From positions 1-52,917 of the forward strand of contig QPMI01000086.1 in NCBI GenBank assembly GCA_004431415.1: 52,917 bases of DNA, read 5' to 3'. Every line of letters begins with the position of its first letter. The stretch's first letter is position 1. Position numbers and translations under genes: made by a program. Positions 6,101 through 40,859 of the stretch are shown one piece after another. The stretch comes from Cyanophora paradoxa CCMP329 (Eukaryota; Plantae; Glaucophyta). The notes beneath the pieces were generated by a model that worked only from the letters and a program-made list of their open reading frames with translations, made no database searches and was not told the DNA's origin.

Positions 6101-6408
6101 ATGCTTGATAACCTGATTAGAAAAGGGAGACATGAAATGACAATTGCAAATCCTCAAATTGGGGCAGTTCAGCAAGGCAAAACCATACCATTACATTAAA
6201 TTGGAGTCCTGCCTTTGCATCTGCTCCATCTGTTGTTGTAACATTGCAGGGACTACCTGCAACAAATGTGGAAATCGATTATAAAATAGGAATATCAAGC
6301 AACTCAACAACCTCTACCACAATCAATCTTGTTATTTGGGCAGCAGGATGGGTAACCATTCAACCACAGTGGCTTCAAATTGCAATTCATTGGATAGCAA
6401 CAGCATAA
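3144..6408 (+). CDS. Long virion fibre/adhesin-like protein (split by frameshifts; may be 1-2 genes)
   Basis: Consecutive + fragments contain acidic LPDGFDPxEYEY repeats (~4150-4400), HxHxWxEIxxKP repeats, FSGxYNDLxNKP, HTHTKAEITD repeats (~5505-5770) and YLPLTGG, all typical of phage tail fibres. The C-terminal FASAPSVVVT...IHWIATA* resembles an H-type-lectin/gp53-like tip. Confidence 0.65.
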
Positions 6409-6433
6409 TTAAGATTCTCACACTATTACAAAG

Positions 6434-7493: not shown

Positions 7494-7515
7494 TATTGTC
7501 TACATAATATAAAGA

Positions 7516-8533: not shown

Positions 8534-8555
8534 TTTTCTTATGGTAGTTTAGGAA

Positions 8556-8822
8556 ATGTCGAATATTTACCAAGTGGTTCTATCTGATATTGAGAAGTTG
8601 GGAATGGAATTTTGTGCTGCTTCTGTTCAGGATTGGATCGATAATGCTGCCCATAACAGAGCAAGAATTGCAATTGATGAGATTGTTCAGAAAGAAATCC
8701 ATTCTTGCATCTCAGGTGGAGTTCAAATACCAACCTCAAAGGAAGCGATTGTATTACAGGCATTCCAAAGGGGAACTGTGAAGAAAGCAATTGAGTATAA
8801 CAATGTCACAGAAGAGCTGTGA
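8556..8822 (+). CDS. Small phage-like protein, putative fibre-associated/assembly partner
   Basis: Intact 88-aa ORF. The motif SVQDWIDNAAHNRARIAIDEIV...IPTSKEAIVLQAF resembles small proteins I recall adjacent to C1q fibre genes in tailed phages (recollection, not searched). Confidence 0.6.
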   Translation: MSNIYQVVLSDIEKLGMEFCAASVQDWIDNAAHNRARIAIDEIVQKEIHSCISGGVQIPTSKEAIVLQAFQRGTVKKAIEYNNVTEEL

Positions 8823-8857
8823 ACATTATTTTTCTTTCCTTCTTAGTAAAAGAAGCA

Positions 8858-9703
8858 ATGGGTGAATATAATCGAGTTCAACTGCCTATATATTCCCTTG
8901 GATCCCCAGCAATGCACTTTCGCCAGCATGAAGTTAATGATGAGGTTCGTGGTTTAGAATCCACAGAGAGACCCAATTCCAATGGCAACTCCTTTGATAA
9001 AAATTCGATTATTCGAGTTAAAGAGCTGAGAGCTGATAAGAATTCTGGTGTGGTTAAAACAACTCGACTTCTTGTCACAAATGCTAACTTCTTTCAGCCT
9101 ACTAATGGAGGTCCTGATGCTTACAGTGTTGATCTGAAAGCCCTTGATTATGATAAAAACACTGCTGCTGTAACTGTGAGATCAGGAGGAGCATTTATTG
9201 GTGGTGGCTGCAGAGTTTCAGGTCAACTTTCATCCTCAATTTCGTATAATGATGTCCCAGATACTCTTGAACAAAATGTAGAGAACCCACAACGAATTCG
9301 ATTATATATACCAGTTGCACAACAGCCAGTTATTCAATTTTACCAAGGTTATACTGTCACACTTGAAAACTCTGAATTGATTGAAGGAACCAAAAGAGTA
9401 ATGAGAGGGCTGGTCATTCCTTCTGCAATGCTTTCTTTATGTAGAGCCAACAATAACCAGCCAGGTCACAGATACAATTTCAGTGTTCAGGGATATGATC
9501 ATTTTGGCACAGGGTTCTGTGTTTATAATAACAATTTCACCTATGATCTGTTTGTTACAGATATTGGAAAATATACAATTACAGTTATGGGTATCAGAAC
9601 AGATATAGCTGCTGTCTCAGCTCTTAGAGGTGTTACTCCTGATACTCTTTCTCAAACAGGGTTTTACCAAGAGCCAGATGTAATTGATGACCCAACCCCA
9701 TAA
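8858..9703 (+). CDS. Fibre paralog C: shared N-terminal module plus phage-fibre-type C-terminal domain
   Basis: Intact ORF (track 8819-9703; likely start MGEY). Contains IRVKELRADKNSGVVKTTRLLVTNANF, SGGAFIGGG and C-terminal YTITVMGIRTD. Confidence 0.72.
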   Translation: MGEYNRVQLPIYSLGSPAMHFRQHEVNDEVRGLESTERPNSNGNSFDKNSIIRVKELRADKNSGVVKTTRLLVTNANFFQPTNGGPDAYSVDLKALDYDKNTAAVTVRSGGAFIGGGCRVSGQLSSSISYNDVPDTLEQNVENPQRIRLYIPVAQQPVIQFYQGYTVTLENSELIEGTKRVMRGLVIPSAMLSLCRANNNQPGHRYNFSVQGYDHFGTGFCVYNNNFTYDLFVTDIGKYTITVMGIRTDIAAVSALRGVTPDTLSQTGFYQEPDVIDDPTP

Positions 9704-9726
9704 AAGATATATCCCTTTAATGTAAA

Positions 9727-10560
9727 ATGGCTGAGCAACCCCCACTTGAACGAATTATTACACCACAGCTATCATTAGCTGCCCCAGCAAACCATGTTCT
9801 ACAGCATGCTACCTTTGATGATGTAGAGGGTCTCCAATCGACAGAGGTCCAACCTACAATGAACACCTTTGGTTCCACCCATAAACTGAGATTACAGGAA
9901 CTCAGATGTGATAAAAATAATGGAATAGTTAAGACAACTAAGCTACTTGTTACCAATGCAAACTTTTCTGCTCATTATGGAGACCCAGATAGCTATGGAG
10001 ATCCTCTTTCTACTTATTCTTTTGAATCTAGGTCGGGAGCTATTAACTGCAAATCGGGGGGAGCTTATATTGGTGATGGTCTTAGGGTTGGTGGGGCTGT
10101 TGGAGCGCCTCTATTTGTGAATGATCAACCCAATCCCATTGATCCCAACACAAGAATTCGAACCTATGTCCCCAGCATGAATGCCCCCTATATAATCAAG
10201 ATATTCCCCATTGTTGTGAATGAACAAACAGCAGTAGTAGATTCTCTTGTTGAGATTGGTGACCACTACAAGGTAGTTGTGGATATTCCACCAGATGTTT
10301 ATGCTCTTTGTCAAGTAGAGGGTGGAACTCCTAATTTTGCAGTTGTGATCACCCCATATGATAATTTTGGTATTGCTTATCATGGAGTCAATTTCGGTTT
10401 GGAAGACTATCAGTTTCTGGTTAGAGCCACCAAGTTTGGTATCTACAAGTGTGTATTATATGCTGAGAGAACCGATTTTATTGCAAAGCAGAATACCTAT
10501 GCTGAATACTATGGGACAAATCGATATTTCCCCATTTTCGGGCAGGATACTGCTCCATAA
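9727..10560 (+). CDS. Fibre paralog D: shared N-terminal module plus phage-fibre-type C-terminal domain
   Basis: Intact 277-aa ORF with LRLQELRCDKNNGIVKTTKLLVTNANF, SGGAYIGDG, FVNDQPNPIDPNTRIR and ITPYDNFG...VLYAERTD; paralogous to C. Confidence 0.75.
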   Translation: MAEQPPLERIITPQLSLAAPANHVLQHATFDDVEGLQSTEVQPTMNTFGSTHKLRLQELRCDKNNGIVKTTKLLVTNANFSAHYGDPDSYGDPLSTYSFESRSGAINCKSGGAYIGDGLRVGGAVGAPLFVNDQPNPIDPNTRIRTYVPSMNAPYIIKIFPIVVNEQTAVVDSLVEIGDHYKVVVDIPPDVYALCQVEGGTPNFAVVITPYDNFGIAYHGVNFGLEDYQFLVRATKFGIYKCVLYAERTDFIAKQNTYAEYYGTNRYFPIFGQDTAP

Positions 10561-10582
10561 GAATATTGGTTATATATAGAGT

Positions 10583-10855
10583 ATGGATAGTAAAACAAAA
10601 AAGTTTATTGATGCTGCTATGACAGTCCATGGTAAAGATAAATTCGATTACAGTGAGACACATTACATCAAAGCTCAAGAGAAAGTATCTGTTAGATGTT
10701 TGCAATGTAACAAGGTGATCCTAACATATCCCTTTAATCATGTGAAGGGATCAGGGTGTAGGGACTGTAACAAAAGAAAGAGTCAAGCACACAGGAAAAG
10801 GGCTACTTCATCAATCAGAGTAGAGTATAGGGATATTTGCATTAGGTTTGACTAG
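10583..10855 (+). CDS. Zn-ribbon protein (DUF723/homing-endonuclease-associated repeat)
   Basis: FIDAAMTVHGKDKFDYSETHY...KVSVRCxxC...HVKGSGCRDC matches the repeat found in phage and giant-virus endonucleases; no nuclease domain is attached. Confidence 0.7.
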   Translation: MDSKTKKFIDAAMTVHGKDKFDYSETHYIKAQEKVSVRCLQCNKVILTYPFNHVKGSGCRDCNKRKSQAHRKRATSSIRVEYRDICIRFD

Positions 10856-10878
10856 TTAATTTTTCTAAGGTATTCTTA

Positions 10879-11277
10879 ATGGAGACTAAATACAGAGGCT
10901 TTCATGTTATGCTTGATTACAAGGCTAAATCAGCTATTGCAACAGGACATGAGCATGTAAGCTTCCTAGGTAATTGGATTATGGGAACCCTTGAACAAGC
11001 AGTATTAAGACAAGGCATTAGGATTGTTCATAAACACTGTGAGATATTTGATGGCAAAATATCACCTCCTGGTTTTGCATTGGTTCTGCTATTAGATGAA
11101 AGCCATTGCACAGCTCATTGTTATTCCAATGAAGGCATGTTAGCAATTGATATATTCAGTTGTGGTAAAGAAGCTCAGCATAAAACACAAGCAGTTGCAG
11201 ATGAGATCGATAAAACAATGAATTTCTTAACATTTGAGAAGACTGAGAGACATAAACATGATAGATTCCCGTTTTGA
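10879..11277 (+). CDS. speD: Prokaryotic-type S-adenosylmethionine decarboxylase proenzyme (or neofunctionalised homolog)
   Basis: Intact 132-aa ORF with GFHVMLD, PPGFALVLLLDESHCTAHCY (E-S self-cleavage site) and AIDIFSCG. Confidence 0.88.
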   Translation: METKYRGFHVMLDYKAKSAIATGHEHVSFLGNWIMGTLEQAVLRQGIRIVHKHCEIFDGKISPPGFALVLLLDESHCTAHCYSNEGMLAIDIFSCGKEAQHKTQAVADEIDKTMNFLTFEKTERHKHDRFPF

Positions 11278-11693
11278 TGGGTTTCTATTATGGTGATCAG
11301 GGTGATTTACCTTTTTATTACAATGGCAATCGTTAAAAAAGGATATAATATATCCTTTCCTACAATAGCTTTCTACAATGATTTTCTTTCTACAGTAGCT
11401 TTTGTTACAATAGAATTCTACTGTATGATGTAGCCGAAATATGAATGCACCCTACATTAAGCAATGTCAAGTATTTCGAATACTATTCGATTTCCTTACA
11501 ATAACACTCAGCATCTGCCCTAGATTCCCCCTATTATATTATATTTATATTTAAGTGGACTCAAGGTTGACTCATATTAATCGTAAAAGTAGTAAAAGTA
11601 TATGGATTTTGTTACGAATTCAATGCAAGGGTTGACTAAGTGGGTTGAGTTGACTCAAATTTCACAGGAAATAACAATGAATCAGAGTATAAA

Positions 11694-12153
11694 TGCATTT
11701 TTTGAATCAACTACACCAACTAACACTGAGATTTTACCAATATATGAGGTCCTTACTGAATATGGTTTGTGTGACAGGTGTGACAGGTCTATCCCAAACT
11801 TTTCTATAGCATAAAAATGAACTCTCAAAAGTTTGGGATGGACCTGTCACACCTGTCACACTCGATTATTTCATTTGTTTATTCAAGTAGAATTACATAG
11901 ATAAACTTCTTACTTATTGTTACTGAGTTTTTCATTATAAAAGAGATCCTTACTGAATATGGTTTGTGTGACAGGTGTGACAGGATGCATTTTGTGAATC
12001 AACTACACCAACTAACACTGAAATTTTAACATTAAAAGAGATCCTTACTGAATATGGTTTGTGTGACAGGTGTGACAGGTCTATCCCAAACTTTTCTATA
12101 ACATAAAAATGAACTATCAAAAGTTTGGGATAGACCTGTCACACCTGTCACAC
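11694..12153. repeat. Duplicated ~165-bp unit, each containing a 35-bp inverted repeat of GTGTGACAG(G) iterons
   Basis: Arms 11769-11803/11827-11861 (1 mismatch) and 12061-12095/12119-12153 (perfect), each with a 23-bp spacer. A half copy lies at 11966-11984. Confidence 0.92.
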
Positions 12154-12405
12154 CCAATTATTTCAAAAATCCTAAGGGTCCCCCCTTAGAATCATTAAAA
12201 CATGATAAAAACATATAAGTTTCATGTATAATTACGATTGGATTCAATAAGAGATCGATTTGTTTTATTAAACAAATGAATCTAATATGGATCTTAATCG
12301 AGTTAAGCGATATATTTCCGATTAAATGAATTAAATTTAATTAAATTTAATCGAGAAAGTACATGAATATAATATCGATTAAATCAATTAACTTTTAGAC
12401 CAATC

Positions 12406-12688: not shown

Positions 12689-13801
12689 CACAGCAGCTGA
12701 TTCACTGCGACGACGTGCTGCGAAACCTTGAAGCCCAAGGCATAGCCAACGATTTCGACGGATACCGGTGCGTACAAGTCTAGATCTACACTCCAAATCA
12801 GAAAACATGCGTGTCTTAGTTGCATGCAATAGGGTGCATGCACCCGTGTTCGATCTATCCATAAGCTGATCGAACTTGGCCTCAGGTATATGCTCACGAA
12901 GATTATGCAAAGTACGAAGGACATCCCAGAGCAGTTCGCGTTCTCCGGGGCTGAGAAAGTCTGGGACAACCTGTACGGCTACATGACGCCGGAGGTGGCG
13001 AGCAACTCTATCTGGGCGCAGACGGTGACGAAGACCATGACGGAGAAGGACGTGCAAGCCGCCATCGCCAAGTTCGATGCGGCCGGCGACAACGATGGGA
13101 TGCTGGACAAGAGCGAGTTCCTGGCGTGCCACGAGCCCGTCATGTCTACATTCAACCCGAACTCGACCGAGGTGCGCGAGCTTCTAGGCGAGCTATATGT
13201 AGGTTGATATTAAAATCGGACTGCACGAGCAAGCGTACGTATATCAAACTTCTCTTTTTCCGCAGCTCACATACAGCACCGACCCTGCAGCGGTGCGTAT
13301 GCGCATGTTCTTCATTTCTATCGTTTTCAGCCCAGAACAGCATGCATACCGCCTTCCTTCTAGAGATAATCCCATTCGAACTTGACTTCCATGATTGTCA
13401 CTCGGGGTCTCTGAACGTGCACGCAATCGCAGGATTTTGAGTACCAAATGAAACTGCAGCAGGTGGAGATGTTCAAGCAAATGTTCGGGCCCGGGGAAGA
13501 TTACATGATGTACATGGATCATTATCACGTGCGCATACGCATGCGCATAAACACGGGCCACAACTCTCATAATGATAACTTGACATGGGGCGCGAGCTCG
13601 AGGGCGCGAACCCCTCTGTACAGTGTCCCGCTAGCGCTACCCCAGCCGGCCGACCCCGACGCCTGTGTCGCCGGGCAGGTGGAGGAGCCGTCCGACTTCG
13701 AGGCGGCGGAGGTCGAGTTTGCTGAGAACGCTGCCGCCGACGAGGCCGCCGCCGCCGCTGCCGAAGTCGCCTGCGCGGACGAGCAGTGCCTGGCTTCTTG
13801 A
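12689..13801 (+). pseudogene. Host EF-hand-containing gene, copy A, 3' part cut off by the viral insertion
   Basis: Near-identical to 30,247-31,358; EF-hand-like DAAGDNDGMLDKSEF. The acceptor gtagg of copy B reads ataag here (~12,861-12,865). Confidence 0.75.
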
Positions 13802-14193
13802 TCCCCTGCATCGCGTCCACGACTGCTATACTATAGCTATCGTTGTTTGTCTGCGTGCCCGCCAAACCGTCGACAGCGTGTCTGCCAACGCGTACGTAAA
13901 CCGATCGCTATAAATGTAAATATTTATAGATGATCGTGATCAGTCACCTGCACGGTATCTGTCTTGGTTGTTGATTGAGCAGCCGAATTTTCATACGTGT
14001 TCCAGGAGCGGGCGAGCTGAGCTCAGCCAGAGGGAGAGTATATATATGCATTGTCCAGCCTGAGATCGCCTACAGCTAGATATAGAAACATATATGTCTA
14101 GATACTTTGACTAGTGGCCAAATAACGCGCTGTACCAAAATAACGCGCCCGCGGCCAAAACTAGGTACCGGGTTGATTTGACATACGTACGTA

Positions 14194-17100
14194 CTAGTGG
14201 CCCGGCCGCGATTCTCGCGCCGGGGGTGCAAGGGGGGAACCGGGATCTAATGAAAGAGTCCTAGTGGCGCGCACATGCGCGCGGCAGAACGACCCCGGCC
14301 CAGTGCGCGCGGCAGGTCGAAGGTTAAAGATAAACACAGATTATGATTGGAAAAATAGAAAAGGCCCGATAAGCACACGCTGCGATCAAACCGAATAACG
14401 TGATGCTACACAAACTGCCGGATTTCAGACAGCTCGAGAGCTTGGGCTCGAGACTCGGGCAGCCACCCGAGACCTCGGGACGGGTAGCAGAACTGGCAAA
14501 AAACGGGTAGCACGTAGGGACAGTTCGCTACAAAGAGGCACGAGATGCCGCAACAGCACGCAACCGCGCGGGAGAGCGAAGAGCGTGTACCGGAAGCACC
14601 GGGCGGGTAGCTAGGCGCGCTGGATAGCTCCCCGGCGCCCGCGCCGCCGACCGACCCGACACCCTGTCTTCGGCGCGTTCGCACGCCCCGCGCGGCGAGT
14701 CTGGCCTAGTCTGGCCGCTGGGGTAGTTGTATATATGTTGCAGCCGGCACGTAGCTAGCTACAGCCAGCACCGCGGACGCCCCGCGCCTTGTGTGAACGG
14801 CCGACCTGTGCGGCTTCGGTGACTGGGTGCGATCCATCGCTCCAGGCGCGGCAGTATCGCTTCCCAGGGTGCCACATACATGCTATTGCACTTACGCTAC
14901 TGCGGCCCCTTCTCTGACCGCGGCCGCAGTGTCACAGTGTGCTCGGGAGAGCGCGGGCCGGGGCGCTTCGCGGGGGCAAGCGTGGTGCGGTGCCGTCATG
15001 CGGAGCAGGGTTCTACACAACTAAGAGCAGCGTTTGTCATCACAGAACAAGTCCGCACTCGCTGGCGCGGCACGTCGCTGTCCACCGTGCTTCTCTTGCT
15101 CTCGCAGAACAAGTCCGCCCTCGCCGGCGCGGTGCACCGCTGTCTGCGGCGCCGCCAGCTCACGCCGAGCCCGCCCGTGCAGCCCCGCCCGCGCCCCCCG
15201 CCCGCCCGCCGCGCGCCCCGCCGCAGGAGGCCGCGGGGCACCGCCCCGGGCGCCTCGGACGCGAGGGGACGACGCCGCGACGCCGCCGACGCCGCCAGCT
15301 CACGCCGAGCCCGCCCGTGCAGCCCCGCCCGCGCCCCTCGACCGCCCGCCGCGCGCCCCGCCGCAGGAGGCCGCGGGGCACCGCCCCCGGGCGCCTCGGA
15401 CGCGAGGGGACGACGCCGCGACGCCGCCGACGCCGCCAGCGGACGCCGAGCCCGCCCGTGCAGCCCCGCCCCGCGCCCTCCACCCGCCCGCCGCGCGCCC
15501 CGCCGCAGGAGCCCGCGCCGGGCAGCCCCCGGGCGCCTCAGACGCGAGGGGACGACGCTGCGACGCTGCCGACGCCGCCAGCTCAAGCCGAGCCCGCCCG
15601 TGCAGCCCCGCCCGCGCCCCTCGACCGCCCGCCGCGCGCCCCGCCGCAGGAGGCCGCGGGGCACCGCCCCCGGGCGCCTCGGACGCGAGGGGGCGAGGCC
15701 GCGACGCTGCCGACGCCGCCAGCTCAAGCCGAGCCCGCCCGTGCAGCCCCGCCCCGCGCCCTCCACCCGCCCGCCGCGTGCCCCGCCGCAGGAGCCCGCG
15801 CCGGGCAGCCCCGGGCGCCTCAGGCGCGAGGGGACGACGCCGCGACGCCGCCGACGCCGCCAGCGGACGCCGAGCCCGCCCGTGCAGCCCCGCCCCGCGC
15901 CCCCCACCCGCCCGCCGCGCGCCCCGCCGCAGGAGGCCGCGGGGCACCGCCCCCGGGCGCCTCGGACGCGAGGGGCGAGGCCGCGACGCTGCCGACGCCG
16001 CCAGCTCAAGCCGAGCCCGCCCGTGCAGCCCCGCCCCGCGCCCTCCACCCGCCCGCCGCGTGCCCCGCCGCAGGAGCCCGCGCCGGGCAGCCCCCGGGCG
16101 CCTCAGGCGCGAGGGGACGACGCCGCGACGCCGCCGACGCCGCCAGCGGACGCCGAGCCCGCCCGTGCAGCCCCGCCCCGCGCCCCCACCCGCCCGCCGC
16201 GCGCCCCGCCGCAGGAGGCCGCGGGGCACCGCCCCGGGCGCCTCGGACGCGAGGGGGCGAGGCCGCGACGCCGCCGACGCCGCCAGCGGACGCCGAGCCC
16301 GCCCGTGCAGCCCCGCCCTCACTCCCCGCCCGCCCGCCGCGCGCCCCGCCGGAGGAGCCCGCGACGGACCGCCCCCGAGGGCCCAGGACGCGAGGGGGTG
16401 AGGCCGCGACGCCACCGACGCCGTAGATCAGCCCCCTAGGCCCTGAGGCCTAGCTTCATGTAGCTTTGCTTTCTCGCCTCAGAGGCCCACTTTCGCGACC
16501 CAGAGGCCTTCCTTTAGCCTATGTTTTGTTCCAAAAGCATGTAAATGACTTGTATTCTGCGCCCTGAGCGCTGTATGCGACTGGGCGGGCGAGGATCACT
16601 CAGGAGGCATCTGGGGCCCCAATTTCCAGTAGTTTTTGAATACGGGCCCAGGCTTTGATCGGCGGCCTTCGGTACCACCACCATCGTCTTCAGCACCCTC
16701 GAAAACCCCCGGGGACGTGAAATCATCGTTGTTGAGTGAGTTGATGCTTCAATCAGGCATCATGAGCACGTCGAAGTGGCATTTTGGAACTTGAAAACTG
16801 AAAAGTTCCAGAGAGGGTCCTACGAGTAAAGTTCAAAACATCGGTCCGGCCCAAAAACACTTCGGATCACCCTGTATCTTCGTGCAGTGATATATCTACA
16901 TGTGATAATGATTCTGGCTGAAAGAGCGCCCGCTGGGGCCAGCCAGTCGCCCAGGAACTCACTGGCTCACTGGAACTCATGAGCAATCTCTGCTGGGGAA
17001 GCGCGCGCCAGGGCCGCGCTGCATCCGCGCATGCGCTATTCATGCGCTAATTGAATCGCGCTACGGCGGCCCTGCGAGTCCTCGCGGTGCTGAGCCCTCG

Positions 17101-19396: not shown

Positions 19397-19479
19397 TATA
19401 CCGCGCTAACTTCCTGCTGCGAAGTCGCCCTTCATATACATTATAGTAATTACACCCCCCAACCCCCACACGCTCCCCT

Positions 19480-21985
19480 GCAAGAGGCCCCGCGGGGGCC
19501 TCGGCGCCCTCCTGCACCTCCGCAGGCTCAGCGGCTCGTCGTAGACCTGCCCCCCGCCGCCCGACACGCCCTCCGCTTCCCCGGCGCCCGCGCCGCCCGC
19601 CGAGTACCTCCACTCCAGCCGTACGCGTGCGCCCCGTGCACCCGCTCCGCCTGCCCCCCCCCTCCCCCCCCCCGGGACCCCCCCCCCCCACCCCCCACCC
19701 CCCCCCCGCTGAGCGTGGCGCGGAGGAGAAGTGGAGTCCGGGGAGGGCTTTCTCAACCTCTCACAGTCGGGCCTGAAGGCGTGCACGTGGCCCGCCAAGG
19801 AGATCGCCGCCGTCGGCCCCGCGGCCGAGAACGTCCGCGAGCTGCGAGCTCGACCTTGGCGCCCCCCCTCCCCCCCCCTCGCCTTGACCTCGAGCTCTCG
19901 AGCTCGCCCCGCGCATGCGCAGCGCCGCCGCGCCCCGCCCCGCGCGTCCGTGACCATACCATACGTGATACGTATACGTGACCATACCGACGTCCGTGAC
20001 GGGACGAAAAACCGCATCATGCATATGGCATTGAATTCGAAAGCCTCCGTCCCGGTGCCGAACCCGCTTAAAGATGTCGAAAAACCCCGCCCCGGTACCG
20101 AACCCGCGCACGGATCGTTCGGCAGCATTTTCTCGGCTGTAGCTAGCAGCGAACTGCGCGGCGAGAGGAGCTGCTCGGCAGCTTCGAGGGAGCTGTACCG
20201 ACGATTCGAGGGCGGGGCGGACGATTCCACGGCGTCCGTCGATAAATCGTCACCCTTTCGTCGGCTGGAGAGCGTCGTGGCGTGCTCGTCTCTAGCTACG
20301 CCTCCGTCGAATTCGACTCCGGATCCGCGGGCCCGGGCCCGGTGGGCGCGGTCGGGCGCGGTCGGGCGCGTGGTACCGGTGCCACGGTGTTCGGCGGCAT
20401 CCGGGGCGAACTCGAGGACGCCCTGCGGCCATCGCCGCTCGTTCCCGGATCCCCGGAGTCCGCGGGGCGAGATTTCGACCAGCCGGCGGTCAGCTCCTCT
20501 CGGCGGCGCTGCGGAATGGTGCGCTGGGACGCGGCGAGCGGCGCGCTCGTCATGAAGGAGGAGAAGAGGAATTCGAAGCATGCACTAGCCGCAGGACGAG
20601 GTCCAGCTGGCCGGCCCGGACCGCCTCCGCCTCCTCGACCTCGCCGACAACAAATCTCGTCCATCCTCGGCGCGCCGCGCCGCCTTCGGTCCCGCCGCGT
20701 CGCGTCGCGCGCGGCCGCCAGCTGCAGCTGACAGGGCCCGTGGCGCCGGCGGGCCGGCGCGCAGGGAAGAGCCTGGCGCCGCTCGCGAAGCTGGATGTGC
20801 TGTTCCTCGACGGCAACGGGCTCAAGGCGCTCCCGCCGGAGATCGGGCGCCTCACAAACCTGCGCACCCTCGGCTTGAACCGGAACAAGTGCGCCGCCCG
20901 CCCGCCCTTTGCCCGCCTGCCCCCGACCGAGCGCGCCGCGCCGCGCCACAGGCTTGCGCACATCCCGTCGAGCTGCGGTGCGCCGCGCCGCCGCCGCGCC
21001 GCCACGCCCACCGGCGCGGCGCGCCTCACGGCGGCGCCGGCGCGGCAGGAAGCTGGGCGTGGAGCGGAACGAGCTGGCGGCGCTGCCGGCGTCGCTGGGG
21101 CGCTGACGGAGGCGCAGCCCGCCGACGAGCCTGGAGGCGCAGCCCGCCGACGAGATCGCCGCCGTCGGCCCCAAGAACGTCCACGAGCTCGACGTCGGCG
21201 GCAACCTAATCCGCTCCCTCCCCGGCCCGCCCCGCCCCGCCCCGCCCCGCGCCGCCCCGCTCCGCCCCGCGCCGCGCCGCCCTGCTGACCGGGGCGTGAA
21301 CGTGCACGCGCAGGGCCCGAGCTCGCGAAGCTGGTCAACCTCACCTGGCTGCGCCTCACGCACAACCTGTGCGCGCCCGCCGCCCGCACCGCCCCGCCCT
21401 CCCCCGCCCGGCCCCCTAGCTATAGGCCTCGCGCTGAAGCCCGGCAGGCTGACAGAGCGCTAGCTGCCGCCGGAGCTGGGGCGGCTGACGCGGCTGCGGA
21501 CGCTCCTGCTGCGCGAGAAAAAGCTTTTCAGCCTGCCCTGCGAGGGCGGCGCCCTGGTCAACCTGCGCGAGCTTCGCCTCTCCGGGAACGGCCTGCAGCT
21601 GCGGGCCCTGCCCCCCGAGCTCGGCCGGCTGCCCCGGCTCGAGGTCCTGCACCTGTACCCCAACGAGCTCCTGCGGCTGCCCCCCGGCTGCCGCGAGGGC
21701 GACCCGCCCGAGGCCCTCCTCGAGTGCCTCCGCTCCCTCGCCGCCTCGCCCCGTGCGCCGCGCGCCCTCCGAGGCCCCGCCCCCGCCCTCGCCCGCCCCT
21801 CACCGCTCGCCGCAGAGTCCTCCTCCGGCCCCTTCGGCTCCCGCCTTCCGAAGTTCTGGTACCGGTGCGCCCCCCTTCCCTTCCTTCCCGGCGTGCTGGC
21901 CCCCGCCCGCGGCGAGCCGCCGACGTGGCGCCAGCGCTAGCAGCGCGGCCCGGGGCCGCTGGAGCTCGCCCCGGGGCGCCTCCGC
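19480..21985 (+). pseudogene. Leucine-rich-repeat gene, copy A (multi-exon, 3'-truncated)
   Basis: Exons encode LAKLDVLFLDGNGLKALPPEIGRLTNLRTLGLNRNK, LPPELGRLTRLRTLLL and LRELRLSGNGL. 21,460-21,975 is paralogous to 31,970-32,475; similarity stops at ~21,975. Confidence 0.75.
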
Positions 21986-22283
21986 CTTGCCAATGAGTGA
22001 GTACTAGTTGCCATTTCGCTCGCCGGACCTTGTCGAAACGCTAAGAAACAGCTGTATGTACCCCCCCTACGCATTAAAACGCATGAATTCGGTGCCGCAT
22101 TAATAGCCATTACAGGGGTCCGGGTCCAAAAACGCATTGATTATCCTTAATATTACTACCTACGGGGGGTTCGCCGGGGAACTTCGCCCCACCGTAGTCT
22201 CTTAAAAACAAAACCCGCATTAATTACTGGCGTACCCGGTAGTGTTACTGGGAGTGTTAGGGTTAGGGTTAGGGTTGAGTGCC

Positions 22284-27659: not shown

Positions 27660-29157
27660 GGATGATCTTGATTTGCGTCAATGCTGCGCGTCGACGTGCG
27701 AATGAGCTATGCATATGCTTGATGCGTGCGACACGCATCGATATCGGATCCCGAGCGCAGGTACTCCGATCAGTTCAAGGAGGCGAGGACCCTCGAGGAA
27801 ATCGACTCGGTGACGGAGACTGGTGCCAGGGTGCGTCCGCTAAGCTAAGGCGAGCCCGCGTTAAGCTCATGATCATGCATATATTATATGATCCTGTATC
27901 TGAACAATCGTCGACGTCCGCAGGTAACTTCGTGCTCCGTCAGATCGTGAGACCCAGAAAGTCTTGTACGGGGAGTTCACGAAAATTGCAGCCGGGTGCG
28001 ATGCGCAGCCACGCGCACATGAACTTCAAATATAATTATAGATTCTCGCATCTAGCTAGCCGCTGAGCCGTGATCATGATCATGATTCACAAGAGCGAAT
28101 CTTTCTGCTTTCTCTTAATGGGCTCTTACCCGTCATGTCAAATGCGTGTAGGTCGCCGGAGGAGAACCAGTCGCCCGGTGCGTCATCTGCGCATGCAGAT
28201 CGCGAGCTGTCGCAGTGTATGCGCGTCTGATCTCGATGCGGCAGCCCCGGACGCGGTGCAGTGGACGCGGGACCCCGCCTCCGAATCCTATGTGGGAGCG
28301 GGAATCCCCCAGCAAGGCCCTCGCATTCCGGATGGGCCTCGCGTGCCGGTGGAAGGCCCCGCGGGCCAGTGGGCGCCGATCGCGCCGCCCTCGTCAAAGC
28401 CAGCAACGCTTCCATCAGCGTCGCCGAGCCGGTCCAGGCGTGCGGCGACAAGCCCTGGTGAACATCTCCAGGCAGTGCCCTGTCCGGGCTTCCTAAAGCT
28501 TCATCGTTTAAGGCGATTGCGCATGCGCAGCTTCCAGTCGCATCTGGCATCACTCGCGGTGGAGAGCGGGGCGCCGATGGTGCATGTAGGGCAGCAGACA
28601 GCACTGTCCAAGTGGAGCTGGCTGCCAATAACATCCTGCTCCAAGCTCTTGAACTTAATGTGCGCCGCAGCCTGCGCGTTCCCAGCTTGCGATTCCGCCG
28701 ATTTCATGCGTAAAACGTCCGACGCAAGCAGGAGTCGTCTGACGCTCCGAAGAAAGAGCTGCTTCTCTCCGGGACGCGCTCGTCAAGGTGTGATTCTATT
28801 CGCATTGGTGTGATTCTTATGTGTGTGAGGGCGGCTGAGAAGCTCGCAGGACGTCGGCCTGATCCCTTACACACTCCATTACAACTTGTCCAAGAATTCG
28901 CATGAGTCACGCGTGCTCGAGGAGAAAGGTGATTCATGCTTAGAAGTTATTTCAATACTCTTAGCTATAGATCTCAGACGGGCCAGCCGTTAGAGCCCCT
29001 TTCACGCGCGATAGCTTCCTGTCGAAATCATTCCGTAATAAGTGCCTGAACGAGTTTGCGGCTCGCAATTACAGGAACGTTCTCCGAAACACTGGTGTGT
29101 GCATGCGTCCCCGACCCGGGCCCGCGCGTTTGATTTTGTTTTCTTCGACCTCGCAGT

Positions 29158-31358
29158 CTGTCGAGGTCAACGGCCAAGGCACCTACATGTACTCGCACGG
29201 CGGCCTCTACGTCGGCGATTACGCCAAGCCCGGTCTCGAGGCGAGCGAACGACTTCAGATAAATTCAAACATGTGGTCAGAGAGACCGTCGGACGATCAG
29301 ATGTGCTAACCAGACGGCGAGCTCAGGTCGGAACGTACGAGATCTATGCCCGCGACGTCAAGTCCTCAGCCGTCGAAACGCCGGTGCACTCATCGGAAAA
29401 TGTGGACCCTAACCAGGTACGCTCACGCTCGCAACTGCAAACTTGTAGTTTAGGGTCTTCCGATATCCAGCTGGATATCGCTCCTCGAAAGCTCGTCGCT
29501 GATGCAGTGCATATCCATGCTCTGCACGCAGGAGCAACTGCCCCGTGGCACCTCAATCCGGCTGGGGACCCATCATCACCCCGGACGGCGAGGCCACGGG
29601 CGACCGCGTGCGCATGCGCTGATCTGTCTGATCTCTCTCAGCTGAAATGCTGATGGACGGACCGGGTACCGGCACTATGTCACTCGCGCAGGTCCCGCGT
29701 CGGAAGTTCTGGAGGCGTCGGACAGCACCGACCTGGAGCCGCGGCAGACAATCTCTGGTCCGCGATCCGCTTTGCTATCCGATGTCCCTGCTTGACGCTA
29801 CACTGTCCACGCTGCCGGCAGGGATCTGAAGCTCATTCCCGAGTTCAAATCGGACTCGATTCCAGGGCCCAAATCATGCCCCACGGTTCGCTTACGCGCT
29901 TCTCGCTTCGCTAAATTGAAGTGCTACAAGAAGAACATGCATATGCTTTCTCACGGCAAACTTCGTTTGTCTGTGTCATCGCAGGGAGAGTGCCTGGACG
30001 TCCAGGCCCCCATCCACAACGCTACGGACTTTCTCAAACCGCCTGCGAGTGCGTTTCGCATACTTTAAACCTCACGCACAAATATATATATAGCATACAT
30101 TTGCATATATACGATTTATAAACCAGCGTCGAGGTTCAAATTCGAATTCAGGGCCAGACGTTGAGATCGCGCGCGCGTGCGGTTTCGCAGCAGCGAGTCG
30201 GCCACCTGCGAAGTGCCCGTGGGCTTGAAGTGCCCGCTTGCGAACGCACAGCAGCTGATTCACTGCGACGACCTGCTGCGAAACTTCGAAGCCCAAGGCA
30301 TAGCCAACGATTTCGACGGATACCGGTGCGTACAAGTCTATATACAGCTCGATTCCAAATCAGAAGTCATCCGTGTGTTAGCTGCATGCACTTGGGTGCA
30401 CGCACCCGTGTTCGATCCGTAGGCTGATCGAACTTGGCCTCAGGTATATGCTCACGAAGATTATGCAAAGTACGAAGGAGATCCCAGAGCAGTTCGCGTT
30501 CTCCGGCAAGGAGGCAATCTGGGACACCCTGTTCGGCTATATGACGGCGGAGATGCCGAGCGACCTTATCTGGTCTAATGTTGTGAACAAGACCATGACG
30601 GAGAAGGACGTGCAAGCCGCCGTCGCCAAGTTCGATGCGGCCGGCGACAACGATGGGATGCTGGACAAGAGCGAGTTCCTGGCGTGCCACGAGCCCGTCA
30701 TGTCTACATTCAACCCGAACTCGACCGAGGTGCTTGAGATACAAGGCTATATAGCTCGCTAGAGACCGATGCACGTGCAAGTGCACGTGCAAGCGTACAT
30801 ATATCAAACTTCTCTTTTTCCGCAGCTCACATACAGCGACGACCCTGCAGCGGTGCGTATGCGCATGTTCTTCATTTCTATCGTTTTCAGCCCAGAACAG
30901 CATGTATACCGCCTTCCTTCTAGATATAATCCCATTCAAACTTGACTTCCATGATTGTCACTCGGCCGCGGGTCCCTGAACGTGCGCGCGATCGCAGGAT
31001 CGTGAGTACGAAATGCAACAGCAGAAGGTGGAGATGTTCAAGAAAATGTTCGGGGAAGATTACATGTTGTATATGGATCGTTATTTCGTGCGCATATGCA
31101 TATGCATGGGCCACTTTAAATTCTCATAATTATAACTTGACATGGGGCGCGAGCTCGAGGGCGCGAACCCCTCTGTACAGTGTCCCGCTAGCGCTACCCC
31201 AGCCGGCCGACCCCGACGCCTGTGTCGCCGGGCAGGTGGAGGAGCCGTCCGACTTCGAGGCGGCGGAGGTCGAGTTTGCTGAGAATGCTGCCGCCGACGA
31301 GGCCGCCGCCTCCGCTGCCGAAGTCGCCTGCGCGGACGAGCAGTGCCTGGCTTCTTGA
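29158..31358 (+). CDS. Host multi-exon gene with an EF-hand-like motif and acidic tail, copy B (uninterrupted; 5' limit uncertain)
   Basis: Short exons bounded by AG and GT/GC encode SVEVNGQGTYMYSHGGLYVGDY, VGTYEIYARDVKSS, CEVPVGLKCPLANAQQLIHCDDLLRNFEAQG, FDAAGDNDGMLDKSEF and VEEPSDFEAAEVEF...CLAS*. Confidence 0.65.
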
Positions 31359-31821
31359 TCCTCGCATCGCGTCCACGACTGTGCATCGCGATCACTTGCA
31401 CGGGATCTGTCTCGGTCCTTGAGCAGTCGAATCATTGAATTCGCAGTTAAATATGCATCTACCCACTTGAGAATCCGAATCTCTCGACACATATATACGT
31501 GTCCCGATCCAGCATTAATATTAGCAATCGCAGCCTGGCGAGCCAATTCTCGGCGCGCATGCATTGTCACGCTTAAGATCGCCTGCCAGCTGAAGGCTGA
31601 GGCCCTTCCGTTTGGCTCGGAGATCTAGATCGATATCTACATACATGATTTCGATCTAGATACATGTAGATACTTTGACTAGTGATAAATGAACGCTGTA
31701 TCAAAATAACGCGCCGAAGTCTTTAGATACCGCGTTAATTGATAAACGTACCGCGCTATAGCTATATAGCTAACTCCCTGCTGCGATGTCGCCCATACAT
31801 TACACTCCCGCGGGAACCTCG

Positions 31822-34777
31822 CGATCGGCGCCCTCCCGCACCTCCGCAAGCTCGTCGCGGACGGAAACCCGATCTCCAAGGCCGACCTGCCCCCCGCCGC
31901 CCGCCGCACCACACTGGTGGCGGCGCATCCCCTTAATGATCAGCTCATCAAAACGCGCGCCGTCGTCAGCCGGCGCCGCCGGAGCTGGGGCGGCTGACGC
32001 GGCTGCGGATCGGACGCTCCTGCTGCGCGAGAACAAGTTTTTCATGATCAGCCTGCCCCGCGAGGTGGGTGCCCTGGTCACCCTGCGCGAGCTCCGCGTC
32101 TCGGGGAACGGCCTGCGGGCCCTGCCCCCCGAGCTCGGCCGGCTGCCCCAGCTGGAGCTCGAGGACCTGCACCTGTACCCCAACGGGCTCCTGCGGCTGC
32201 CCCCCGACTGCCGCGAGGGCGACCCGCCCGAGGCCCTCCTCGACTGCCTCCGCCCCCTCGCCGCCTCGCCCCATGCGCCGCGCCTCCGCCCCCGCCCCCG
32301 CCCTCGCCCGCCCCTCACCGCTCGCCGGCAGAGTCCTCCTCCGGCCCCTTCGGCTCCCGCCTCCTCGTGCGCGCCCCTTCCCTTCCCTCCCGGCGCGCTG
32401 GCCCCCACCCACGGCGAGCCGCCGACGTGGCGCCGGCGCAGGCAGCGCGGGCTGGGGCCGCTGGAGCTCGCCCCGAGGGGCTACCTGAACCTCGAGTGCC
32501 GCGGCCTGATCGAGTGGCCGGCGGCGCTGATCGAGGCGGCGGGGCCGGCCCGCCTCCGCCGCCTCGACCTCGACCGCAACAGCATCGCCGAGATCCCGCC
32601 GAGCGGCGAGCGCAGGCGGGGCGCTGGCACGCCTCGCGGGCCTGCAGAATTCGAAGCTGCACCTCGGGGGCAACCACCTGCGCCTCCGCTCCCTCCGCAA
32701 CCTCACCGTCGACGTCCACGGCAATCTCATCCAGGCGCGCGCACCCCCGTATTCCCCCCCCCCTTCCCTCCCCCCCCTCCCCCTCCCTCCCCCGACCCCC
32801 CGCCCTCGCAGGCGCTGCCGCTCGGGCTGGCGCAGCTGCCGCGGCTGGTGTTCCTGGCGGCGCTGCCGAACCCGGTGCAGGAGCTGCCGGCGGCAGCGCT
32901 CGCGATCGCCATGGCCAGCGACGAGGCGCTCCTCCGCCACCTCCCGCAGCGTGCGCCACGCCGCCCCGCCGCTCCGCCGCCCCGCCTTTCCCTCCTTGAA
33001 AATATTTACGCCTGCGGCAGTGTCCGACGAGCCGAGCGACGAGGCCGCCGCGCCCGCCGGCGGTCCGCCGCGCGAGGCCGGCACCGGCGGCGCGGAAAAG
33101 GAGCGGTCGCTCTCCGCCGCCCGCCCCGCCACCGACGCCCTCGCCGCGCGGGAGGCGGGCGGGGCGGAGGGGACGCCCGCAGGCGCCCCCAGCCCCGTCA
33201 CCGTGCGAGGTGGTGCCGCCGCTGGATCCCGAGCCGGCAGAGGCGGCAGGAAAGGCCCGCCGGAGACGCCGAGAGCAGCGGCCGAGGCGGCCCTAGCGGC
33301 GCTGCCGCTAACGCCGCCGGAATTCAAAACGGCGCGGATGCCGCCGGCCCCGCCGCTGACACCGACTCCGGGGGCGGGGCCAGCCCGCCCCGCCGGCCTC
33401 GCCGCCATGTCCGTCGACGACGTCGCCGTGTGGCTCCAGTGCGCGCCGGCCGCCTCTCCCGCCCCGCCCGGCCGTGCCGACGGGGCCGGGGCTGCAGGCG
33501 GGCGGGCTTCGGGGCGCTGGAGGGGGCCTTCCGCGCGAACTTCGTCTCTGGGTGGGCCCTCCTGCGCCTCGAGGAGGCCGACCTCGAGCAGCTCGGCCTC
33601 GCCGCGCCCCTCGCCCACAAGAACTTCCGCCTCGAGGCCCGCCCCCGCACCCTCCGCTGAGATTGACCTTGAGCTTACTGCGCCGGCTTGCCCAGCTGGA
33701 CGCCCTCGAGGCGCAGGCGGAGGAGGCGGAGGCGGCGCCGCGGCCGGCGCACGTGCACGTGCACGTGCCCCCGGGCCTGGGGCCCCTCTCTACGACGCTT
33801 TCATCTTTGCGCTAGCGCTACTGGAAATCCACCCCGCCCCGCCCCCGTTCTGCGAGCTGACAGGCGCGCATGCGCAGCTACGCGCAAAAAGCGTGCAGCT
33901 ACCGACCGACCGGCGGTACGTATACGTCGAGCGGCGCGAGGCCGCCGGCCTTTCCCTGTGGTGCCGGCGCCGCCCCCGCCCCGCCCCGCCCCGCCCCGCC
34001 GCGGCCCGAGCGGGCGGGCGCCGCGCGCGGCAGGGTGGACCGGAGCTCAAGGCCGGCCAGCAGCGGCTGGAGGGCATCGCGGTGCGCCCCGCTCCTCCCA
34101 GCCCGCGGCCCGGCCCCTCGAACCGCCCTCGGCGTCGACGCGGGAGACGCCGGCGCAGGAGGCGGACGGCGTCTCAGCAGACGTACGTCTGCTTCCTCTC
34201 GGCCAGCTACCTGGCCAGCAAGAACTGCGACGACGAGATGCAGGCGCGCTGAGGGCCAGTCGGCCCGGCCCCGCGGCTCCGACCGCGATCGCGGCCCGGC
34301 CCGGCCTGACCGAAGTCGGCGTCGCGCTGCGCAGTACGCGCACCTCAAGCTGCGCATCCCGAAGGTATCCGTCTGGCTCTGCGACCCCGCCTCCCCGGGC
34401 TCAAGATGAAGAGGGCGCGCCGCCGTCTCCCCCCCCCCCCCCCCCCCCCCCCTCCTCTTCCCCCCGTTTTCGAGGGCGGACCTCTGAGTAAATGGCGGGG
34501 GCAGGACTACGAAGTGATGCTGGCGGGGCTGACGCACACGGCGCAGCTGGGCCCCGAGGCGCCCCACGTCGACGCTGCCTGCCGCGCCCTCGCCGACGGC
34601 CTCCGTCCGCCCGCCCGCCCCACCCCGGCCCGCCCTCCGGGCCTCCGCCTCAGGGCTTGCGGTCGCTTGCGGACCAAACGCTTGCCGGCGCTCGCGCACA
34701 GGGCGTTCGGGCTCCCGGGACCCCGCGCCGCCCCGCACGGTGGCCGTGGGCCGCACCACGGACCGGCGACGCCTTGA
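31822..34777 (+). CDS. LRR-SAM-TIR protein, copy B (multi-exon; some frame disruptions)
   Basis: LRRs include LRELRVSGNGLRALPPELGRL and LRRLDLDRNSIAEIPP. SAM is MSVDDVAVWL/GFGALEGAFRANFVSGWALLRLEEADLEQLGL (33,407-33,636). TIR is LYDAFI...LSLW...YVCFLSASYLASKNCDDEMQ/YAHLKLRIPKVSVWL (33,788-34,400). Confidence 0.75.
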
Positions 34778-39042: not shown

Positions 39043-39736
39043 CGCCGTGACGGCCGGCCCTTGGCCGTCGCCCGGATTCCCCTTCGAATCACTTTCGCAT
39101 TCCGGGATCCTTTTAATTGTAAATAATATTTAGTGCGAGATTGCTCGACTCGCCTTCTAGTGCTGCCTTCAGCTTGGCTTTGTATTTGTACATTTGCAAT
39201 TGATATCGGTTCCTTATAGTCATACTGTATCGATATCCGCAGTTTCTATGGACATGATCATGAGCGTTGCGATCGCTGTAAAACCTCAAATTTGAGTTCT
39301 ACCTCCCATGATCATGAGTGTCGTCACTTGTACTACTACTTGCAAATGCAATATTTATGTAATTGCAGATCCCGCTTGCCAAGTGGAATCCTCCCTCTCA
39401 TGAATGTCGTCGACGTCTTTTACAAATGCGATATACTTAGTTATAAATAATTACTGAAGACGCAAGCGACACTTCGAAAAAAAAGGTTGACGTCGGACAG
39501 TGCACGTGTAACATGTGGAAACACAAGCTGTCAAGCGCACCGCGCCGCGCCGGCCCTGGCGGAGGTCAACGGGCGGACGCGGAATTCGAGTTCGAGGAGC
39601 TCGAGGCGGGGGGCGGCCCGGCGGCGCGTGGTTGGCCGGCCTCGGCCTCCCGCGCCTCGCGCCCGCCACCTGTTTCACGCAAACGGACAACCGACACGCG
39701 TGAAATCTCTCTCCCTCCCGCCTCCTAAGGCAAATA

Positions 39737-40685
39737 CTAGTGGCCCGGCCGCGATTTTCGCGCCGGGGGGGCAAGGGGGGAACCGGGATCTAATGAAAGA
39801 GTCCTAGTGGCGCGCACATGCGCGCGGCAGAACGACCCCGGCCCAGTGCCGAGCGCAACAAGAGCGCCCGGCCCGGCCGGCGTGCTCGGCTGCGGGCAGC
39901 GGCGCACGCGGTTCTGCGGTATAAGCTCGATATCGGCAGCGTGCTGAGCGCAGCAAGAGAGCACGGTCTGGACGGCCGGCGTGCTCGGCTGCGATCAGCG
40001 GCGCAGCTAGGCAGCGGCGCAAGCTTGATGCAGTGAAAAGTAGTCCAGGCGGCACGCGTACGGGTACCGTGCGGCGTACGCGGCGCACTGCGAGGAAGCG
40101 GAAATCTAGAGGAGACAGCTATGGAGTAGTGGTTCCATGCAGAACCGCGCAACGAATTCGAAGAGCTAGTAATATAAACTAGTATTACAGTTACCACTTC
40201 TCCCTAGCTGTCTCCTCTAGATCTAGATTTCGGCTTCGTCGCAGTGCGCCGCGTACGTACGCCTTGCTCTTCGTTGCGCGGTTCTGCATGGAACCACTAC
40301 TCCATAGCTGTCTCCTCTAGATTTCCCGGAGTCCGCTTCCTCGCACTGCGCCGCGTACGCCGCACGGTACCCGTGCAGTCTGGACTACTTTTCACTGCAT
40401 CAAGCTTGCGCCGCTGCCTAGCTGCGCCGCTGATCGCAGCCGAGCACGCCCGGCCGTCCAGACCGTGCTCTCTTGCTGCGCTCAGCACGCTGCCGATATC
40501 GAGCTTATACCGCAGAACCGCGTGCGCCGCTGCCCGCAGCCGAGCACGCGTGACCGAGCCGAGGGGTCGCGCGAAGCGCGCGACCCGAGGGGAGGACTCT
40601 GCGCATGTGCGTGCCACTAGGACTCTTTCATTAGATCCGGTTCCCCCCTTGCACCCCGGCGCGAAAATCGCGGCCGGGCCACTAG
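39737..40685. mobile_element. Foldback-type non-autonomous DNA transposon (~950 bp, ~400-bp inverted arms)
   Basis: TA|CTAGTGGCCCGGCCGCGATTTTCGCGCC...GGCGCGAAAATCGCGGCCGGGCCACTAG|TA. The arms ~39,737-40,160 and ~40,265-40,685 are largely reverse-complementary. Confidence 0.9.
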
Positions 40686-40859
40686 TATCATTCGAAATTC
40701 CCACAAGTGATTCTTCATATATCATGTCCGCATCGATGTAACTGGTGGGCTACGAAGCGACATAGATCCAGTCGACTTCAAATTCGGAACAACATTATGG
40801 TGCACGATACTCCTGTTGACATCAGAATGGCGACTGCATCTAATATAAGAAGTTACACG

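What the first reader, a model, noticed from the sequence alone, without database searches (positions are those of the whole stretch)
31822..34777. LRR-SAM-TIR protein: a SARM1-like immune receptor architecture in a protist, next to an endogenous virus
Splicing the GC-AG introns yields LRRs, a low-complexity linker, a SAM domain and a TIR domain. The TIR keeps the CxxE motif (SYLASKNCDDEMQYA) whose Glu is catalytic in NADase TIRs. Known: SARM1 is ARM-SAM-SAM-TIR, with SAM-driven oligomerisation activating NAD+ cleavage. Inference: an LRR-sensor version of this switch, a candidate cell-autonomous defence or death effector. Proximity to the virus may be coincidental.
Basis: partly seen in the sequence, partly recalled or inferred. 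Interest (0 to 1): 0.72.

Follow-up and report, generated by a model that had tools for sequence, protein, structure and literature searches.

The report
Dead copy of algal LRR-SAM-TIR gene
The gene in this window is a frameshifted, partly deleted copy, but its spliced and transcribed sister elsewhere in the same glaucophyte alga likely encodes one protein joining leucine-rich repeats, a SAM domain and a TIR domain, a SARM1-like layout that would be a candidate immune switch.

Summary
LRR, SAM and TIR sequences are present, in that order, across 12 short introns. The copy at 31.8-34.8 kb cannot make the protein. Against its paralogue it lacks the start and 8 of 16 LRRs. It carries four frameshifts (about 32006, 32610, 33771, 34165), each inside a short-read contig that has the window's letters at that site, so they are not long-read errors.

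The database labels the proteins Cyanophora paradoxa. A paralogue on another contig is annotated as two consecutive models: g23879 (LRRs) and g23880 (SAM plus TIR_2, E 7e-20, Glu kept). Spliced RNA-type contigs match the paralogue's residue in 17 of 18 variant codons. The two models are probably one gene of about 1,000 aa split by an indel, because g23879 ends in a 52% Arg off-frame tail. No contig bridges them.

It is not SARM1: no ARM domain and only one SAM. NADase and immune roles are untested. The virus-like block lies 19 kb away and nothing links them. Verdict: a pseudogene pointing to a probably real architecture that my limited searches did not find described.

The parts
31806..31911 (+). 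Orphan LRR fragment matching paralogue residues about 163-195; everything upstream, including the start codon and 6 LRRs, is absent
   Evidence: RNA-type contig X7 record 17 has 491 further letters upstream that do not lie on the window
31975..32272 (+). LRR exon (3 repeats) with a +5 nt frameshift at 32006 and two 6-nt insertions; about 90 paralogue residues are missing before it
   Evidence: LRR_1 21.2 bits; gaps table 4; X1 record 2 identical to window over 31980-32111
32273..32331 (+). Intron with AT instead of GT donor (GT in the second window copy); not inside a listed short-read piece
32332..32950 (+). LRR exons 32332-32366, 32446-32734 and 32812-32950; +16 nt frameshift near 32601-32616 and an 8-codon deletion
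   Evidence: X6 record 14 has 16 gaps; X1 record 3 identical to window over 32412-32750
33021..33438 (+). Single exon: Ala/Pro-rich linker running without a stop from the end of the LRR block into the first SAM helix
33498..33636 (+). SAM domain main exon (one SAM only)
   Evidence: SAM_1 23.0 bits; 96% identical to g23880; spliced to 33696 in X6 record 15
33696..33808 (+). SAM-TIR linker and TIR strand A (YDAFI), with a frameshift near 33771 that puts the TIR out of frame with SAM
   Evidence: X1 record 5 identical to window over 33554-33956
33878..34081 (+). TIR exons 33878-33960 and 34034-34081 (helix A to BB loop); SY-A motif garbled, L to R and W to R changes; base missing at 34041 is an assembly slip
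34159..34243 (+). TIR strand C and helix C exon with C-D-D-E (Glu codon 34235-34237); +1 nt frameshift in its first 22 bases
   Evidence: TIR_2 E 0.084; RNA joint 34082 to 34180 has 19 letters between against 20 in the window; X1 record 6 gaps lie elsewhere
34335..34777 (+). Last three TIR/tail exons (34335-34414, 34505-34604, 34702-34777 with stop); two unresolved single-base losses
19400..21979 (+). Second, truncated and decayed copy of the LRR half only (model g24273); no SAM or TIR sequence matched
   Evidence: 86% identical to 31975-32481; P0004
1..12300 (.). Low-GC (0.34-0.42) virus-like block with tail-fibre-like repeats, C1q, F5/8, HNH-like endonuclease and AdoMet decarboxylase; context only

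Best explanation
The locus at 31.8-34.8 kb is a broken duplicate (missing start, missing exons, four read-supported frameshifts) of a spliced, transcribed Cyanophora gene that likely encodes one cytosolic LRR-SAM-TIR protein, predicted to work as a ligand-gated TIR enzyme. Shown: decay of this copy; a paralogue with 16 motif-counted LRRs in three blocks (g23879) numbered next to a SAM-TIR model with the Glu (g23880); RNA-type contigs matching both halves. Inferred (about 0.75): the two models are one open reading frame of about 1,000 aa split by an indel in the GC-rich linker. Inferred by analogy (about 0.35-0.4): the LRRs bind a trigger and restrain the TIR, the single SAM helps cluster molecules, and clustered TIRs cleave NAD+ to deplete it or to make a cADPR-type signal. 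A role in defence is a further inference. The nearby virus-like block plays no part in this reading.
For: Decay: frameshifts, deletions; 223 of 253 and 230 of 265 matched residues identical to the paralogue; short-read contigs carry the window's letters across all four shifts; RNA-type contigs lack the 5, 6, 6 and 16 nt insertions. The annotated model of this copy (g24276, 506 aa) stops after SAM. The genome is reported as probably haploid, so the transcribed form is a paralogue rather than an allele (PMC6704402, passages). Paralogue: LRR_8 E 1.8e-47; SAM_1 E 3.4e-9 and TIR_2 E 7.3e-20; consecutive gene numbers on one contig. RNA variants give the paralogue's residue in 17 of 18 codons, including all 12 non-synonymous ones, in both LRR and TIR parts. 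One ORF: g23879 residues 653-696 are 52% Arg and 0% Ala and resemble the off-frame readings of the window linker, whose SAM-leading frame is open and scores best overall. The assembly lacks single bases at 14 places in 5,243 compared bases, and its authors say the gene models need manual curation. Enzyme analogy: the Glu aligns with the WCWDE motif of Cat1 (E 4.4e-5); the best solved-structure matches of the SAM-TIR model are SARM1 chains (E 8e-6).
Against: I never saw the paralogue's DNA, so the indel that splits g23879 from g23880 could be real. The window's open linker frame is weak support, since a decayed copy stays in frame one time in three, and one 63-nt linker window prefers another frame. 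The short-read run may be the data the assembly was corrected with, so it excludes long-read error but is not an independent strain. The Glu is in more than 70% of TIRs (PMC7075850) and 4 of 29 protist TIRs were active in a heterologous test (10.64898/2026.04.20.719644). The TIR alone matches MyD88, a scaffold TIR, almost as well as Cat1 (E 1e-4). One RNA codon (34211) differs from the paralogue's residue as far as listed.
Confidence: 0.62

Rival explanations
1. Both loci are decaying: the break between g23879 and g23880 is real, so no full LRR-SAM-TIR protein is made today and the RNA is residual transcription, or only an LRR protein or a SAM-TIR protein is made.
For: The paralogue is annotated as two models; no listed contig bridges LRR and SAM; at least three further copies of the family are fragments (window copies A and B, and P0059); RNA contig depths are only 3-7.
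Against: The paralogue's LRR blocks, SAM and TIR are free of the insertions and substitutions seen in the dead copies; introns are spliced out in contigs of two studies; single-base losses are common in this assembly.
Confidence: 0.2
2. The intact paralogue is one protein, but its TIR is a non-catalytic scaffold, as in MyD88 or most TLRs, in a general signalling pathway rather than a death or defence enzyme.
For: TIR matches to MyD88 at E 1e-4; Glu alone predicts activity poorly; the LRRs are generic SHOC2/RSU1-like or ROCO-like.
Against: The Cys-x-x-Glu helix and the SY motif are kept in g23880, whereas MyD88 has no Glu at this position in the alignment; protist TIRs can be active enzymes.
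Confidence: 0.35
3. The window copy itself is functional and its frameshifts are long-read assembly errors or are bypassed by unusual splicing.
For: The assembly does drop single bases, one of them at 34041 inside this gene; the copy has no in-frame stop at aligned codons.
Against: The 5- and 16-nt insertions and the shifts near 33771 and in 34159-34180 are in short-read contigs carrying the window's letters; the start and 8 of 16 LRRs are missing; the shortest intron here is 59 nt, too long to absorb the shifts.
Confidence: 0.04
4. The gene is functionally or historically tied to the neighbouring virus-like block (captured by it, or placed to guard it).
For: Both lie in one 53-kb window; the LRR-only copy is about 7 kb from the block's edge.
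Against: The gene is 77% GC with 12 host-type introns while the block is about 40% GC; 19 kb of host-like DNA lies between; the living paralogue is on another contig; the block has few of the palindromic scars that cover the host DNA (7 in 11.3 kb against about 6 per kb), which suggests a different or shorter history. Silent, methylated viral insertions are reported in this species (PMC12344493, passages).
Confidence: 0.04

Closest known systems
SARM1 / TIR-1 / ect4 (ARM-SAM-SAM-TIR NADase; PMC8295901, passages)
   Same: Repeat domain, then SAM, then C-terminal TIR with a Glu in helix C; SARM1 chains are the best solved-structure matches of g23880 (E 8e-6) and SARM1/ect4 clusters the nearest Atlas hits (0.93).
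   Different: LRRs instead of ARM; one SAM instead of two; a long low-complexity linker; the TIR itself matches SARM1 poorly (7 bits) and Cat1 or MyD88 better. Orthology is not shown; independent assembly is the likelier reading but no tree was built.
Plant TIR-NLRs (TIR-NB-ARC-LRR)
   Same: Cytosolic LRR plus Glu-bearing TIR in one chain; sensor-gated clustering is the model.
   Different: No NB-ARC or NACHT hit; order reversed, with TIR at the C-terminus; SAM would stand in as the clustering module.
Toll-like receptors and choanoflagellate TLRs (LRR-TM-TIR; PMC6040629, passages)
   Same: LRR N-terminal, TIR C-terminal.
   Different: No clear transmembrane segment (highest 19-residue hydropathy 1.8, inside an LRR); SAM sits where the membrane anchor would be.
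Algal and protist TIR proteins (Gephyrocapsa huxleyi, PMC12489294; enzyme survey 10.64898/2026.04.20.719644; both passages)
   Same: Glu-bearing TIRs in unicellular algae; some are upregulated in virus-resistant cells, some protist TIRs make cADPR.
   Different: The G. huxleyi TIR genes are reported to lack LRR and NBS domains; no LRR-SAM-TIR protein or glaucophyte appeared in the passages read.
LRR-Roc-COR (ROCO) proteins
   Same: The best non-Cyanophora match of the LRR exon is an LRR-Roc-COR protein (P0003, 45% identity); the LRR blocks end in a similar NP...ALLxYLR cap (by eye).
   Different: No Roc or COR hit in g23879 or g23880.

Membership tests
Functional gene at 31.8-34.8 kb | Open reading frame after splicing, with start and all domains | tested here: not met
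   Four read-supported frameshifts, missing start and 8 of 16 LRRs
SARM1 | N-terminal ARM domain | tested here: not met
   Only LRR families hit g23879
SARM1 | Two tandem SAM domains | tested here: not met
   One SAM stretch in g23880 (27-79) and in the window model
SARM1 | C-terminal TIR with catalytic-position Glu | tested here: met
   TIR_2 E 7.3e-20; Glu217 of g23880 aligns with the Cat1 WCWDE Glu; out of frame in the window copy
SARM1 | SAM-driven ring and NAD+ hydrolysis | not testable with these tools
   Needs biochemistry
TIR-NLR | Central NB-ARC/NACHT STAND ATPase | tested here: not met
   No such Pfam hit at E up to 1
Toll-like receptor | Transmembrane helix between LRR and TIR | tested here: not met
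   No hydrophobic segment there; maximum 1.8 lies inside an LRR at residue 114, maximum 1.4 in g23880 (hydropathy only)
LRR-SAM-TIR single polypeptide (paralogue) | LRR, SAM and TIR on one open reading frame and transcript | tested here: inconclusive
   Consecutive models, off-frame Arg-rich tail, open linker in the window copy; no bridging contig listed and paralogue DNA not available
LRR-SAM-TIR single polypeptide (paralogue) | Spliced transcription of both halves | tested here: met
   RNA-type contigs skip the introns and match paralogue residues in 17 of 18 variant codons

The most novel reading that the evidence does not exclude
A glaucophyte independently built a SARM1-type switch by putting an LRR sensor on a SAM-TIR NADase: a cytosolic immune receptor class with no STAND ATPase and no membrane anchor, turning over by duplication and pseudogenisation like a resistance-gene family, in an early-branching lineage of the plant supergroup.
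Probability: 0.25. Interest if true: 0.72.

Novelty: new variant of a known kind. Interest (0 to 1): 0.4.

Why it matters
The locus flagged is dead, so expressing it would fail; the target is the paralogue g23879+g23880. If that is one active protein, it gives a third way to gate a TIR enzyme (SAM clustering under LRR control, beside ARM-SAM-SAM in animals and NB-ARC in plants), in a lineage that informs what immunity looked like early in the plant supergroup. It is cheaply testable with RT-PCR across one linker and an existing bacterial TIR assay.

Tried and rejected
No whole genome is held for this window, so the paralogue's DNA and the copy number could not be read. A search with the intron-containing TIR frame found nothing among proteins of 315-1003 aa (g23880 is 303 aa, outside that range) or among 1.84 billion representatives; both queries were diluted by introns. 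The SAM exon found 2 of 84 candidates, both Cyanophora; the LRR exon found 58 of 642, none listed with a TIR family. g23880 against metagenome contigs: 597 pattern matches, none confirmed. The Atlas showed no cluster with LRR plus SAM or TIR among listed rows; it covers only clusters of 50 or more members, so this is no proof of novelty. Single-sequence AlphaFold of g23880 failed (pLDDT 37) and was not used. The SAM dimer job gave no answer. No RNA holder was listed for the window's own sequence, and the listed RNA pieces carry the paralogue's letters; contigs show presence only, so this is not evidence of silence. No listed RNA contig bridges LRR and SAM-TIR. An apparent shift at 31823 is an alignment artefact of an in-frame insertion (my reading). 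One viral ORF found no relative in viral contigs, so the virus-like block is unclassified. Paper searches for the architecture listed no LRR-SAM-TIR description; the library is open-access only. The assembly paper's supplement could not be read and may hold expression data for these models; the methylation paper's one readable file did not mention them. Earlier scan notes held nothing on this gene.

Full report
Observation. The region 31.8-34.8 kb is 71-77% GC and holds, on the + strand, pieces of LRR, linker, SAM and TIR spread over short exons. Of 14 exon-sized pieces scanned, one passed the LRR_1 cut-off, one reached the SAM_1 cut-off, and the exon with SYLASKNCDDEMQ hit TIR_2 at E 0.084. 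The junctions I fixed give 12 introns of 59-97 nt: five GC-AG, six GT-AG, one AT-AG. RNA-type contigs from two studies skip several of them, including the EMQ|YA intron. So the domains and their order are real.

Source and relatives. The LRR exon found three close proteins among 58 hits of 642 candidates, labelled Cyanophora paradoxa by the database: g24276 (this locus; 506 aa, ends after SAM), g24273 (a second LRR-only copy in this window, 19.4-22.0 kb) and g23879 on contig tig00000293 (696 aa, 16 motif-counted LRRs). The SAM exon found g23880 on that same contig: 303 aa, SAM_1 E 3.4e-9, TIR_2 E 7.3e-20. A further LRR fragment, P0059, clusters with g24273.

The window copy is dead. A frameshift-aware alignment to g23879 and g23880 gives 223 of 253 and 230 of 265 matched residues identical, but with residues 1 to about 162 and about 196-285 absent (8 of 16 LRRs and the start), an 8-codon deletion, many small insertions and net frameshifts. 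Four shifts lie inside short-read DNA contigs that carry the window's letters there: +5 at 32006 (record 2), +16 near 32610 (record 3), near 33771 (record 5) and +1 in 34159-34180 (record 6, whose three gaps lie at 34041, 34086 and 34113). The RNA-type contigs lack the 5, 6, 6 and 16 nt insertions and have 19 letters where the window has 20. The base missing at 34041 is an assembly slip; in the window it masks the +1 downstream, which may be why the TIR looks readable. Two more single-base losses (about 34392-34400, 34704) are unresolved. The TIR's SY-A motif is garbled, and a Leu and a Trp of the paralogue have become Arg. Caveat: the short-read run may be the one used to correct the assembly, so it rules out long-read error but is not a second strain.

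The paralogue is transcribed. Of 18 codons with listed RNA differences that fell on aligned residues, 17 give the paralogue's residue, including all 12 non-synonymous ones, in both LRR and TIR parts; the exception (34211) lies in a piece with six differences of which one is listed. One listed difference (32165) fell next to a gap and was not counted, and differences beyond 34534 were not given to the script. The tool marks these runs as RNA by guess; the intron skipping supports that. The genome is reported as probably haploid and its gene models as needing curation (PMC6704402, passages).

One protein or two? g23879 ends in 44 residues with 52% Arg and no Ala, against 10% Arg in its LRR part, and this tail resembles the two off-frame readings of the window linker. 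g23880 starts at a Met that is internal to the window's linker exon, where the frame is open from the last LRR into SAM and scores best overall (-31 against -48 and -57), though one 63-nt window prefers another frame. The assembly lacks single bases at 14 places in 5,243 bases compared with short-read contigs. I put a single ORF of about 1,000 aa at about 0.75. It is not shown: I could not read tig00000293 and no listed contig bridges the halves.

Mechanism. For the paralogue I commit to: cytosolic (no transmembrane segment by hydropathy), LRR sensor, SAM-assisted clustering, TIR enzyme. The basis is analogy with SARM1, where ARM inhibits, SAM oligomerises and Glu642 is catalytic (PMC8295901, passages). 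SARM1 chains are the best solved matches, mostly through the SAM, and the Glu aligns with that of Cat1. Against over-reading: the Glu is in more than 70% of TIRs (PMC7075850, passages); 4 of 29 Glu-bearing protist TIRs made cADPR isomers in a bacterial assay (10.64898/2026.04.20.719644, passages); the TIR matches MyD88 nearly as well. Enzyme activity about 0.35-0.4; defence role no higher. TIR genes rise in virus-resistant Gephyrocapsa but lack LRRs (PMC12489294, passages).

Membership. Not SARM1 (no ARM, one SAM), not a TIR-NLR (no STAND ATPase), not a TLR (no membrane helix). It may work like the first two. Choanoflagellates have SARM1 homologues and other TIR fusions (PMC6040629, passages), so TIR domain shuffling in protists is expected. 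Searches listed no LRR-SAM-TIR description, and searches showed no such cluster or locus, but I could not run a proper pan-eukaryote architecture survey.

Virus. Bases 1 to about 12,300 are 34-42% GC with tail-like repeats, C1q, F5/8, HNH-like and AdoMet decarboxylase matches. No hallmark capsid or polymerase gene was seen among the ORFs scanned and one ORF found no viral relative, so 'virus-like' is as far as I go. Giant-virus insertions are reported in this species (PMC12344493, passages). The block is 19 kb away and the living paralogue is on another contig.

How it broke. Many insertions have the form triplet, reverse complement, triplet. There are 13 such 9-mers in the 2,020 exon bases (shuffle mean 2.8, maximum 12), most at the insertion sites by my comparison, and 117 and 102 in the two host flanks against shuffle means of 11.8 and 7.2; the virus-like block has 7 against 2.6. 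Nearly all triplets occur, and 4-, 5- and 6-base versions number only 7, 1 and 0. This looks like hairpin-type repair scars, from excision of a transposon with a 3-bp target duplication or from fold-back repair (recalled mechanisms; search listing only). The cause is not identified.

Verdict. Observation partly confirmed; interpretation partly supported; locus a pseudogene; family probably a new domain arrangement of known parts. Interest 0.4.

Noticed in passing
window 12400-52917: Host DNA is 10- to 14-fold enriched in triplet/reverse-complement/triplet 9-mers (117 vs 11.8 and 102 vs 7.2 shuffled; about 6 per kb). They coincide with most small insertions in the pseudogene and look like hairpin-type excision or fold-back repair scars with no target preference. 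Possibly a genome-wide mutational signature and of interest on its own.
   Followed up: partly
window 1-12300: Low-GC virus-like block with tail-fibre-like repeats, C1q, F5/8, H-lectin-like, HNH-like endonuclease and AdoMet decarboxylase; two related ORFs at 8801-10560; few palindromic scars; unclassified.
   Followed up: partly
window 12689-13825 and 30247-31381: Duplicated gene remnant, 89% identical, with an EF-hand-like motif seen by eye (no Pfam support); one copy abuts the edge of the virus-like block, the other lies just upstream of the LRR-SAM-TIR pseudogene.
   Followed up: partly
window 19400-21979: Second decayed LRR-only copy with exons apparently out of order relative to g23879; a near-identical model (P0059) exists on another contig.
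   Followed up: partly
window 39734-40688: 955-bp element that is one long imperfect inverted repeat (82%), with an end copy at 14192-14306; MITE-like.
   Followed up: no
window 15147-16423: Tandem array of about 141-bp, 84% GC units, about 90% alike.
   Followed up: no
window 22260-22277: Three interstitial TTAGGG telomere-type units just after the truncated LRR copy.
   Followed up: no
window 27900-30320: Nine single-base losses relative to short-read contigs in about 2.1 kb: ORFs in this assembly may be split by errors.
   Followed up: yes
window 34188-34243 (X3 record 12): A second, more distant RNA-type contig matches the TIR helix C exon, hinting at further expressed TIR genes in this species.
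   Followed up: no
P0060 residues 83-106: The g23880 model appears to retain a 24-codon intron between SAM and TIR that an RNA-type contig splices out (X6 record 15).
   Followed up: partly
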